This document shows positions 16,521-17,324 of a DNA stretch of 32,000 nucleotides, piece after piece (position 1 is the stretch's first letter; each line of letters begins with the position of its first letter). Position numbers and translations under genes: made by a program. The notes beneath the pieces are model-generated. The model was not told where the DNA came from. It did no database searches and saw nothing but the letters and a program-made list of their open reading frames with translations. Origin of the DNA: Candidatus Saccharimonadota bacterium (GTDB taxonomy: Bacteria > Patescibacteriota > Saccharimonadia > Saccharimonadales > Saccharimonadaceae). The stretch lies in the NCBI GenBank assembly GCA_001897305.1, contig MKSO01000001.1, positions 240,001-272,000 of the forward strand. The letters are read 5' to 3'.

Positions 16521-17192
16521 ATGCCAGTTTTTGTTGCACTGTCAACCGTGGCTGATGGCAATATGTATATTCCGGAAAGCCAAGCCGATGAACAGGTAAT
16601 TGCTACCCGCATGGCTTGGTTAAAAAAGCAGGGTATCGAAGCTACTAATACAACGCGGGTGAACATTTCTTTTGATCAAGATAATTATTGTCGGTATCGA
16701 ATTGCTGACTCTTCAAATAAAGGTGAGGGGATGTTTGATGGTGATGATGAGCCAGCCGATGCCTTAGTAGCGACCGAGAAGAATCACGCTTTACTCTTGC
16801 CAGTAGCCGACTGCGTTGCTACAACCTTATATGATGAACAGCATGGAGTATTGATGCTGTCGCATCTTGGGCGCCATAGTTTAGAGCAGCGCGGCGGGGT
16901 CCAGAGTGTGAAGTTTTTACAAGACATCTACGACACCGATCCGGCAAAACTAAAAGTATGGTTGTCGCCAGCTCCAGGTAAGCAAGTATACCCGATTTTT
17001 AAACTTGGCGGACAGGGTATGAAGGAAACGGCTTTTGAACAACTACAACAAGCCGGTGTGTTATTTGAGAATATTACCGACAACCCGGCCGATACTGCTA
17101 CGGATGGCAATTATTTCTCGCATAGTGAATTCCTTAAAGGCAACAAACCTACCGATGGTCGCGTCGCTATGGTCGCCATGATGACGGACTAA
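16521..17192 (+). CDS. YfiH/PgeF (DUF152, laccase-domain) family protein, second divergent paralog
   Basis: 223 aa. Motifs LLLPVADCVATTLYD, MLSHLGRHSL and YFSHSEF...DGRVAMVAMM. Starts 6 nt after the serS stop. Confidence 0.7.
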   Translation: MPVFVALSTVADGNMYIPESQADEQVIATRMAWLKKQGIEATNTTRVNISFDQDNYCRYRIADSSNKGEGMFDGDDEPADALVATEKNHALLLPVADCVATTLYDEQHGVLMLSHLGRHSLEQRGGVQSVKFLQDIYDTDPAKLKVWLSPAPGKQVYPIFKLGGQGMKETAFEQLQQAGVLFENITDNPADTATDGNYFSHSEFLKGNKPTDGRVAMVAMMTD

Positions 17193-17324
17193 GCGCGAGC
17201 CAGCCGAGCCTGATACTGTAAGGGCGACTCTGCAGCCCGAGTTTGAACGGGACGCTGGCGCCCGAGAAAACCCGGAGCGAAGCCAAGCTCGTCAGTAACA
17301 GGCTCGGCTGGCTCGCGCTTAGTC
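17187..17324 (+). repeat. hairpin-capped conserved-core element, copy 1 (candidate structured ncRNA or palindrome-associated element)
   Basis: The 26-nt arm GACTAAGCGCGAGCCAGCCGAGCCTG (17187-17212) is exactly complementary to 17299-17324. Pairing continues inward (TACTG/CAGTA, GGGC/GCTC). The 56-nt core at 17230-17285 is 53/56 identical to 27400-27455. The 5' arm includes the stop codon of the upstream gene. Confidence 0.85.

What the first reader, a model, noticed from the sequence alone, without database searches (positions are those of the whole stretch)
17187..17324. Conserved 56-nt core at the tip of a perfect 26-bp hairpin, between the second pgeF-like gene and hpf (copy 1 of 2)
Most of this intergenic region is one large hairpin. 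Positions 17187-17212 are exactly complementary to 17299-17324 (26 bp, no mismatch). Pairing continues inward: TACTG 17214-17218 with CAGTA 17293-17297, and GGGC 17222-17225 with GCTC 17287-17290 (one G-T pair).

At the tip sits a 56-nt core (17230-17285, CTGCAGCCCGAGTTTGAACGGGACGCTGGCGCCCGAGAAAACCCGGAGCGAAGCCA). It recurs 10 kb downstream at 27400-27455 with 53/56 identity. The stems around that second copy have a completely different sequence.

A conserved apex with unrelated but fully paired stems is the reverse of a MITE, where the terminal repeats are conserved. It is what a structured RNA with a processing stalk would look like: a 26-31 bp duplex is an ideal RNase III substrate that could release the apical RNA. 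I saw no target-site duplication flanking it. The 5' arm incorporates the stop codon of the upstream gene. The element ends 11 nt before the hpf extended -10, so it could also act as a terminator or insulator.

I recognise no known RNA family in it, but this needs a real search. Its position upstream of a raiA/hpf gene makes comparison with the raiA-motif RNA worthwhile.
Basis: seen in the sequence. Interest (0 to 1): 0.85.

Follow-up and report, generated by a model that had tools for sequence, protein, structure and literature searches.

The report
Repeat module capping host intergenic hairpins
The conserved 56-nt "core" is a real, uncatalogued, self-folding repeat found at about five places in a Saccharibacteria genome, always at the tip of a long hairpin that belongs to the host locus; it behaves more like a small mobile or REP-like DNA element than like a stand-alone RNA gene.

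Summary
No Rfam family matches, raiA motif included.

The organism is Candidatus Saccharibacteria bacterium 47-87. I found the core at five loci in this species and at both window loci in its nearest fetched relative (77.5% nucleotide identity). A diverged, covarying homologue occurs in two more species.

The stems differ because they belong to the host locus. At ftsX–CHAP, five species keep a hairpin whose base pairs with the -35 box of the next promoter. Its tip carries core A forward, core A inverted, a diverged relative (C), an unrelated module (B), or no module.

The core is itself an imperfect hairpin. In a model-fitted alignment, 15 of 23 pairs change on both sides and 92% of cells pair. 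Nearly all pairs are Watson-Crick. It lies in either orientation relative to the genes.

My best reading is a REP/MITE-like self-folding DNA module living in hairpin tips and co-transcribed with the upstream gene. A cis-acting RNA role, such as RNase III processing or 3'-end protection, remains possible. How the module is mobilised is unknown.

The parts
17187..17218 (+). Copy 1, 5' arm of the host hairpin. It starts 3 nt before the pgeF-like stop codon. The outer 13 nt, GACTAAGCGCGAG, are conserved in the relative L007; the middle 19 nt are not.
   Evidence: comparison with L007
17219..17229 (+). Copy 1, 5' inner closing stem (TAAGGGCGACT). It is specific to this locus and shared with the L007 orthologue.
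17230..17285 (+). Copy 1 of core A: an imperfect hairpin with a GCA/GA loop, a GAA/AGA internal loop, a 1-nt bulge, a 2-bp helix and a CUGG tetraloop, framed by CUGCA and GAAGCCA.
17286..17292 (+). Copy 1, 3' inner closing stem (AGCTCGT).
17293..17324 (+). Copy 1, 3' arm, complementary to 17187-17218.
17335..17342 (+). Putative extended -10 of hpf (TGTATGAT), 10 nt after the hairpin. Its position and sequence are conserved in five species.
   Evidence: sequence conservation; the consensus scan did not flag it
27325..27339 (+). Copy 2, outermost 5' pairing segment, inside the end of ftsX and including the stop codon (TTATCTTAAGCTTTA).
   Evidence: I12; conserved in L007 and L043
27351..27381 (+). 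Copy 2, 5' arm of the host hairpin (31 perfect bp). It is homologous to the 5' arms at the same locus in L007 and L043.
27382..27399 (+). Copy 2, 5' end of the subfamily-2 module (TGAGATACAAGGAAATAT), shared with three other copies.
27400..27455 (+). Copy 2 of core A. It is 56/56 identical to the copies at L046:8927-8982 and L007:9857-9912.
27456..27469 (+). Copy 2, 3' end of the subfamily-2 module (TTTCCGGTAGATCG).
27470..27500 (+). Copy 2, 3' arm. Its last bases run into the conserved CTTGAC (-35-like box, 27499-27504) of the CHAP-peptidase promoter.
27510..27524 (+). Copy 2, outermost 3' pairing segment (TAAAGCTTATGCTAA). It overlaps the conserved -10-like region.

Best explanation
The 56-nt core is the conserved centre of a 76-95 nt self-folding repeat module, family A. 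The family is restricted to a small group of Saccharibacteria. The module sits in the apical loop of long intergenic hairpins that belong to the host locus. These hairpins are terminator-position structures that run from the upstream stop codon to the downstream promoter.

**Shown**
- Multiple dispersed copies.
- Presence or absence between species.
- Both orientations.
- Replacement by other modules at the same hairpin tip.
- Host arms that are homologous across species while the tip changes.
- A conserved imperfect-hairpin fold with covariation.

**Inferred**
- The module spreads at the DNA level into hairpin tips, by insertion or by copy-conversion.
- It probably spreads as a folded single strand recognised by a structure-specific enzyme, in the way REP/REPIN elements are thought to be handled by RAYT transposases.
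- It survives at hairpin tips because a self-folding insert in a loop only lengthens the host hairpin. In a genome with almost no spare DNA, that is a safe site.
- The composite is transcribed at the 3' end of the upstream mRNA, where a 26-34 bp duplex would block exonucleases or be cut by RNase III.
For: **Copies and distribution**
- Five loci in the window species: w1, w2, L046:8927-8982, L046:11380-11436 and L029.
- L046 lies on the same 915-kb scaffold as the hpf locus.
- Neighbouring genes are unrelated: pgeF/hpf, ftsX/CHAP, pilus gene/recombinase, ndk/tRNA.
- One site is empty in a relative, where L048 has its genes 2 nt apart. There is no long hairpin at pgeF-hpf in L010, L013 or L055.

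**Orientation**
- The core is inverted at the orthologous ftsX-CHAP site in L007 and at ndk-tRNA in L046 versus L048.

**Host arms versus tip**
- At ftsX-CHAP the arms are homologous in the window, L007 and L043. In five species the hairpin base pairs with CTTGAC.
- The tip is A+, A-, C-type, B, or module-free.

**Sequence conservation**
- The core is 56/56 identical between species whose genomes are 77.5% identical.

**Fold**
- 92% of cells pair and 15 of 23 pairs change on both sides. No shuffle out of 500 reaches this, and slid controls pair at 25-45%.
- Bulges and internal loops are kept in the L048 homologue.
- Pairs comprise 203 Watson-Crick, 2 G.U and 2 A.C. My own knowledge is that structured RNAs usually carry more G.U pairs; I did not test that comparison here.

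**Ends and assembly**
- Three of the four subfamily-2 copies share inverted ends, CTTCAATCTAC...GTAGATTGAAG.
- Contigs break inside the core, as they do at repeats.
Against: - No transposase, target-site duplication or excision footprint was found. The complete genomes could not be scanned.
- Copy number is low. One metagenome yielded only about 4-5 loci carrying the exact 20-mer.
- The orthologous pair w1 / L007-1 shares locus-specific inner stems, so it was inherited vertically. It differs at only 3 of 56 core positions, while the middle of the arms diverged completely. That implies purifying selection or gene conversion on resident copies, which a purely selfish relic would not show.
- All five within-species stem polymorphisms give G.U on the gene-sense strand. 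This hints at RNA-level selection, at least on the arms.
- At locus a and at pgeF-hpf, no module-free ancestral hairpin was seen. Pre-existing arms are demonstrated only for ftsX-CHAP.
Confidence: 0.5

Rival explanations
1. The core is a cis-acting structured RNA domain in the 3' UTR or intergenic transcript. The long perfect duplex is an RNase III substrate or an exonuclease block. The conserved tip binds a protein or is released as a small RNA.
For: - The fold is strongly supported by covariation, and unpaired nucleotides are conserved: CUGCA, GAA/AGA and GAAGCCA.
- Resident orthologous copies are conserved far above the genomic background.
- The position is fixed: directly after a stop codon and just before the next promoter.
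- All five within-species stem polymorphisms are G.U on the sense strand.
- For family-A loci, the arms carry 14 G.U on the sense strand against 6 on the antisense strand.
- Six of the eight family-A copies are sense to the genes.
Against: - Two equally well conserved copies are antisense to both flanking genes: L007:19981-20036 and L046:11380-11436. Both C-type relatives are also antisense and fold better on the antisense strand.
- Inside the module G.U is almost absent and shows no strand bias, 2 against 2.
- Over all hairpins the G.U count is not strand-biased: 26 on the plus strand, 39 on the minus strand.
- Neighbouring genes have no common function.
- Unrelated modules occupy the same tips in sister species.
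- There is no Rfam match.
- No U-tract or consensus promoter was found.
Confidence: 0.3
2. The element acts as DNA. One possibility is that the inverted arms let the tip flip, making it an inverton-like switch. The other is that the hairpin or cruciform, or the duplex core, is a binding site for a nucleoid or regulatory protein next to the downstream promoter.
For: - The core plus its inner stems is inverted between orthologous loci in two of the four orthologous comparisons.
- The 3' arm overlaps the -35-like box of the next gene.
- Conservation does not depend on transcription direction.
- Pairs are almost all Watson-Crick.
- A tyrosine-recombinase gene abuts locus a.
Against: - Every contig of the same species shows one orientation: five contigs for w1, and four and three contigs for the two L046 loci.
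- No promoter is detected inside the segment.
- A spacer of about 74 nt is very short for recombinase synapsis (my own knowledge).
- Independent insertions in random orientation explain the flips equally well.
Confidence: 0.1
3. The perfect arms are a by-product of replication template switching, which perfects and extends palindromes around a hairpin-forming core. On this view the stems are made at each locus by inverted copying of the flank and are not pre-existing host hairpins.
For: - Arms are perfect over 26-34 bp.
- The 5' arm contains native gene sequence, including the stop codon, so the matching 3' segment must be derived from it.
- Arms around modules (about 20-35 bp) are longer than module-free hairpins in the same genomes (15-21 bp).
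Against: - At ftsX-CHAP both arms are homologous across three species and a module-free hairpin exists in a fifth, so the hairpin predates the modules.
- Bulges and internal loops of the core persist instead of being erased.
- ExoVII genes, which suppress such events in E. coli (my own knowledge), are present in at least one relative.
Confidence: 0.1

Closest known systems
REP / REPIN elements mobilised by RAYT transposases
   Same: - Short intergenic imperfect palindromes, dispersed in the genome and found in both orientations.
- Fold conserved with compensatory changes, and co-transcribed with neighbouring genes.
- GTAG- or CGTC-like tetranucleotides lie beside the hairpin (CCGGTAGAT; CTCGTCAG).
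- The literature definitions come from the abstracts of PMC3733652 and PMC3337134.
   Different: - The tag sits 3' of the hairpin (CTAC...GTAG), the reverse of a REPIN.
- Copy number is about five, not tens to hundreds.
- The unit is 76-95 nt with a conserved centre.
- Every copy is nested in a locus-specific long hairpin.
- No RAYT gene has been seen.
Bacterial MITEs transcribed into hairpins (Correia/NEMIS, ERIC, RUP, BOX)
   Same: Small, non-autonomous, intergenic repeats transcribed into RNA hairpins. Correia elements are RNase III targets (my own knowledge).
   Different: - In those elements the terminal inverted repeats are the conserved part, and target-site duplications are present.
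- Here the outer arms are locus-specific and no duplication is seen.
Insertion sequences that target palindromic repeats (IS1397/ISKpn1 into the loop of palindromic units; IS110-family ISPpu9 into REPs)
   Same: They set a precedent for mobile DNA landing specifically inside an existing hairpin or palindrome. That leaves unrelated but complementary flanks (ISPpu9: abstract of PMC12288879; IS1397: my own knowledge).
   Different: - Those are full-length insertion sequences with a transposase gene.
- Here the insert is a non-coding hairpin of about 80 nt.
- Three insert types occupy the same tips in sister species: A, its diverged relative C, and the unrelated B.
Repetitive hairpin-forming elements and GC clusters of mitochondrial genomes
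   Same: Small self-folding repeats that invade intergenic DNA in compact genomes (abstract of PMC2800124).
   Different: They occur in organelles, are unrelated in sequence, and are not reported to sit at the tips of host hairpins.
rRNA/tRNA processing stalks cut by RNase III
   Same: A long duplex formed by the flanks of a conserved structured RNA.
   Different: - In a processing stalk the enclosed RNA is strand-specific and essential.
- Here the enclosed unit is found in both orientations and is dispensable in sister species.

Membership tests
Any Rfam 15 family (including the raiA motif) | Covariance-model score at or above the family's gathering threshold | tested here: not met
   No hit in the whole window. 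In E-value mode only noise appeared: mir-1269 at 25.7 bits against a threshold of 100. In seven related loci carrying modules A, B and C, only tRNAs were found.
MITE | Short, non-coding, multi-copy element | tested here: met
   Five loci in one species, with a unit of 76-95 nt.
MITE | Terminal inverted repeats conserved among copies | tested here: inconclusive
   Three of four subfamily-2 copies share CTTCAATCTAC...GTAGATTGAAG. Subfamily 1, L048 and the C-type have different closing stems, and the long outer arms are never shared.
MITE | Target-site duplication | tested here: not met
   No direct repeat flanks any copy. The flanks are inverted complements.
MITE | Cognate transposase encoded elsewhere in the genome | not testable with these tools
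   Only about 60 kb of the roughly 0.9-Mb genome could be read. No transposase Pfam hit appears in the fetched loci.
REP / REPIN-RAYT | GTAG or CGTC tetranucleotide at the 5' end of a 20-40 nt imperfect palindrome | tested here: not met
   GTAG or CGTC occurs 3' of the hairpin and CTAC occurs 5', which is the opposite polarity. The unit is 76-95 nt (definition from the abstract of PMC3733652).
REP / REPIN-RAYT | High copy number together with a RAYT gene | tested here: inconclusive
   The scan of one metagenome found about 4-5 loci with the exact 20-mer. Presence of a RAYT gene could not be tested.
Intrinsic (Rho-independent) terminator | GC-rich hairpin followed by a U-tract | tested here: not met
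   No terminator-like site at either locus. No T-run follows either 3' arm.
Inverton (phase-variable invertible segment) | Both orientations present within one population | tested here: not met
   All same-species contigs agree in orientation. Opposite orientations are seen only between species. Read-level data were not available.
Integron attC site | RYYYAAC ... GTTRRRY core sites at the hairpin base | tested here: not met
   The bases of the arms read GACTAAG...CTTAGTC and AAGCATA...TATGCTT. Neither has an AAC/GTT core.
RNase III processing substrate | About 20 bp or more of uninterrupted duplex, with cleavage demonstrated | not testable with these tools
   The duplex length requirement is met, at 26 and 31 bp. 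Cleavage needs an experiment.

The most novel reading that the evidence does not exclude
The tip module is a functional structured nucleic acid with a dedicated protein partner. One version is a roughly 60-80 nt RNA released from mRNA 3' ends by RNase III. The other is a single-stranded-DNA hairpin signal. In either version, Saccharibacteria swap interchangeable tip modules (A/C and B) on conserved terminator-position hairpins. That would be a modular 3'-end system not described in any bacterium.
Probability: 0.2. Interest if true: 0.8.

Novelty: new variant of a known kind. Interest (0 to 1): 0.55.

Why it matters
Saccharibacteria and other CPR bacteria have tiny, gene-dense genomes and are thought to carry very little repetitive or mobile DNA. 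Their non-coding RNA and repeat content is largely uncharted.

This family shows that small structured repeats can persist and move between loci in such genomes by living in the loops of host hairpins. It also shows that the same hairpin can hold different modules in sister species. That offers a clean natural system for studying safe-site selection, hairpin-targeted insertion and the evolution of palindromes.

On the practical side, the element breaks metagenomic assemblies and leads gene callers to place start codons inside the hairpin.

If the module proves to have a host function at mRNA 3' ends, it would be a new class of cis-element.

Tried and rejected
- **GTDB species-representative scan.** A core 22-mer returned only four chance hits, all inside GC-rich coding DNA.
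- **Viral contigs.** Neither the core nor the copy-2 stem was found. I therefore dropped the idea that the stems are captured phage "spacers".
- **Phage and plasmid collections.** No match.
- **Arms copied from elsewhere.** Arms match only their own partner arm.
- **Cross-species transfer via L038.** I briefly thought L038 came from a different species because its UppP is only 67% identical to the L007 genome's. That was wrong: L046 lies on the same scaffold as the window locus.
- **"Hypervariable middle stem".** This dissolved once I measured that L007 is only 77.5% identical to the window overall. The surprise is the conservation of the core, not the divergence of the stem.
- **Strand test by G.U counts.** Not decisive.
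- **Hammerhead-like reading of CUGAAC...GAGAA.** Rejected, because w1 has UUUGAAC and the GA of the CUGANGA motif is missing.
- **Similarity to SRP RNA (GAAGC motif).** Rejected, because Rfam gave no hit.
- **Literature.** Searches found no description of this element.
- **Recurrent GCCAG in the arms.** Only marginally above chance after correcting for multiple tests, so I did not pursue it.

Full report
**Observation.** The sequence is as described.

- In copy 1, 17187-17212 pairs perfectly with 17299-17324 (26 bp). With one A/A mismatch the arms run 17187-17218 / 17293-17324.
- Copy 2 has unrelated perfect 31-bp arms at 27351-27381 / 27470-27500, plus a further outer pairing at 27325-27339 / 27510-27524.
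- The 56-nt cores (17230-17285 and 27400-27455) share 53 of 56 positions.
- Both regions fold far better than shuffles, with z = -9.6 and -13.0. A core 24-mer is expected 0.00 times and is found twice.
- The core is itself an imperfect hairpin. Two of the three differences between the copies form one compensatory pair (U-A to C-G), and the third lies in a bulge.

**No known family.** Rfam 15 gives no hit at gathering thresholds in the window, and only noise in sensitive mode over the element. There is no hit over related loci either. The core is absent from viral contigs, phage records and plasmid records.

**Organism and copies.**

- The flanking genes are serS, a pgeF-like gene, hpf, secA, ftsEX, a CHAP peptidase and ctpA.
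- Exact protein look-ups place the window in Candidatus Saccharibacteria bacterium 47-87.
- A metagenome scan with a core 20-mer found true copies only in one JGI sample. The other 20 hits were chance matches in GC-rich contigs.
- Together with loci fetched through proteins, this species has at least five copies:

| Copy | Location | Flanking genes |
|---|---|---|
| w1 | window 17230-17285 | pgeF-like / hpf |
| w2 | window 27400-27455 | ftsX / CHAP peptidase |
| locus a | L046:8927-8982 | convergent pilus-operon gene and tyrosine-recombinase gene |
| locus b | L046:11380-11436, minus strand | ndk / tRNA |
| L029 | at the contig end | not examined |

- These are documented.
- The flanking genes have nothing in common, so a raiA/hpf-specific role is excluded.
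- A covariance model built from the copies found no further member in about 370 kb of fetched Saccharibacteria DNA.

**Why the stems differ.** The fetched relatives are 73-77.5% identical to the window at the nucleotide level.

At the ftsX-CHAP site, the 5' and 3' arms of the window, L007 and L043 align with each other. In all five species examined, the base of the hairpin pairs (C/A/T)AAG with the CTTG of a conserved CTTGAC box, followed by a conserved -10-like AAGCTTATGCTAAT.

The tip differs from species to species:

| Species locus | Tip at ftsX-CHAP |
|---|---|
| window | core A, forward |
| L007 | core A plus its inner stems, inverted |
| L043 | a diverged relative, "C-type", on the minus strand |
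| L052 | an unrelated two-hairpin module, B |
| L055 | no module; a simple hairpin of about 49 nt |

So the hairpin is an old feature of the locus, and the roughly 75-nt tip is an exchangeable insert.

The pgeF-hpf site tells the same story. The window and L007 carry core A, and L043 carries module B. In all three the hairpin starts at the native (G)ACTAAG stop-codon sequence. L010, L013 and L055 have no long hairpin there.

Modules B and C also occur at other loci in other species: L013:7788-7954 and L010:303-528. Locus a is empty in L048, where the genes lie 2 nt apart. Locus b in L048 carries a diverged core A in the opposite orientation within unrelated arms.

**Structure of the module.** The L048 homologue is about 60% identical in sequence but keeps the architecture. 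It has the closing stem, CU/AG flanked by GCA/GA, a 5-bp helix with a 1-nt bulge, a 3-4 bp helix, tandem G.A/A.G, a 4-6 bp helix, a 1-nt bulge, a 2-bp helix and a tetraloop. CUGCA and GAAGCC are invariant.

In the model-fitted alignment of ten sequences:

- 92% of cells pair.
- 15 of 23 pairs change on both sides.
- No shuffle out of 500 reaches this.
- Shifting the partners drops pairing to 25-45%.

Two caveats apply. The alignment was fitted to the structure, and only about four lineages are independent.

Bulges and loops persist, so the fold is selected and is not merely a palindrome being perfected.

**RNA or DNA?**

For RNA:
- The position, in the 3' region of the upstream transcript.
- All five within-species stem polymorphisms are transitions that give G.U on the gene-sense strand.
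- Family-A arms carry 14 sense-strand G.U against 6 antisense.

Against a strand-specific RNA:
- Two well-conserved A copies and both C-type copies are antisense to both neighbouring genes.
- Total G.U counts are not strand-biased.
- Inside the module, pairs comprise 203 Watson-Crick, 2 G.U and 2 A.C.

The core is 56/56 identical between the window species and L007, against a 77.5% genomic background. The vertically inherited pair w1 / L007-1 shares its locus-specific inner stems. It differs at 3 of 56 core positions, while the middle 18-19 bp of both arms diverged completely yet stayed paired. Resident copies are therefore held constant, either by selection or by conversion from other copies.

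**Interpretation.** I conclude that the finding is a real, uncatalogued family of self-folding repeat modules housed in the tips of host intergenic hairpins.

- *Most likely mechanism (0.5): DNA-level spread of a hairpin-shaped module, REP/REPIN- or MITE-like, into hairpin loops.* Such loops are the one place in a gene-dense genome where a self-folding insert is harmless. The composite is co-transcribed as the 3' end of the upstream mRNA.
- *A true cis-acting RNA function (0.3).* This remains open.
- *A DNA switch or binding site (0.1), and template-switch palindromisation as the source of the arms (0.1).* Both remain open.
- *Family membership.* It fails the defining tests for REP (tag polarity, size, copy number), classic MITE (target-site duplication, shared outer repeats), intrinsic terminator (U-tract), attC and inverton. 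It is best called a new variant of the small-palindromic-repeat kind.

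Noticed in passing
L043:2045-2120; L052:~11020-11100; L013:~7830-7900: Module B is a second, unrelated tip module of about 76 nt. It has two small hairpins joined by a conserved TTAGCCCAACGCTTAA linker and is closed by GGGT/ACCC. It occupies the pgeF-hpf or ftsX-CHAP hairpin tips in other species, in both orientations. It has no Rfam match.
   Followed up: partly
L043:11487-11560; L010:335-410: The C-type module shares AAGGA...CUG...GAAGCCA...UUCC with core A but has a different apical hairpin. In both cases it is antisense to the genes, and it folds 4-15 kcal/mol better on the antisense strand.
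   Followed up: partly
window 17218/17293; L007 9845/9920 and 19973/20046; L043 2044/2120 and 11486/11561; L046 8915/8990: The distance between the long arms is 72-75 nt at every locus, whichever module (A, B or C) sits inside. This is unexplained.
   Followed up: no
window 31652-31689: A perfect 38-bp palindrome (19 + 19, no spacer): AAAATAAAACCCGTGAGGT/ACCTCACGGGTTTTATTTT. It starts on the last base of a stop codon. It looks like a bidirectional terminator and shows that module-free hairpins in this genome are also perfect but shorter.
   Followed up: no
window 25304-25352 and 7138-7167: Two further module-free intergenic hairpins, with 21-bp and 15-bp stems, lie just after stop codons.
   Followed up: no
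window 17343-17372 and orthologues: The hpf leader AGAAGTATCAACCAACC...GGAGG is nearly invariant in five species that are only 73-77% identical overall. It may be a conserved 5'-UTR element of hpf.
   Followed up: no
window 27478-27540; L007:20036: ORF and gene callers start the CHAP-peptidase gene inside the 3' arm or the core (GTG at 27478; L007 call at 20036). The conserved ATGATGAAACTG at 27538 is the likely true start.
   Followed up: partly
L009:1-31; L029:6406-6458; L008 end: Metagenomic contigs begin, end or become error-ridden inside the core. The element therefore breaks assemblies.
   Followed up: no
arms of w1, L046a, L048b, L043 and L007 hairpins: The pentamer GCCAG/CTGGC recurs in the otherwise unrelated arms of most loci. 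It is only marginally above chance after correcting for multiple tests.
   Followed up: partly
L006:2813-2819: One strain has two A-to-G changes in the 5' arm. They turn the pgeF-like stop codon TAA into TAG and the preceding Asp codon (GAC) into Gly (GGC), and they leave G.U pairs in the stem.
   Followed up: partly
window 14222-15238 and 16521-17192; L007:6300-7871: Two pgeF-like (Cu-oxidase_4) paralogues flank serS. In L007 the first is fused to a Peptidase_M15_4 domain (523 aa).
   Followed up: no
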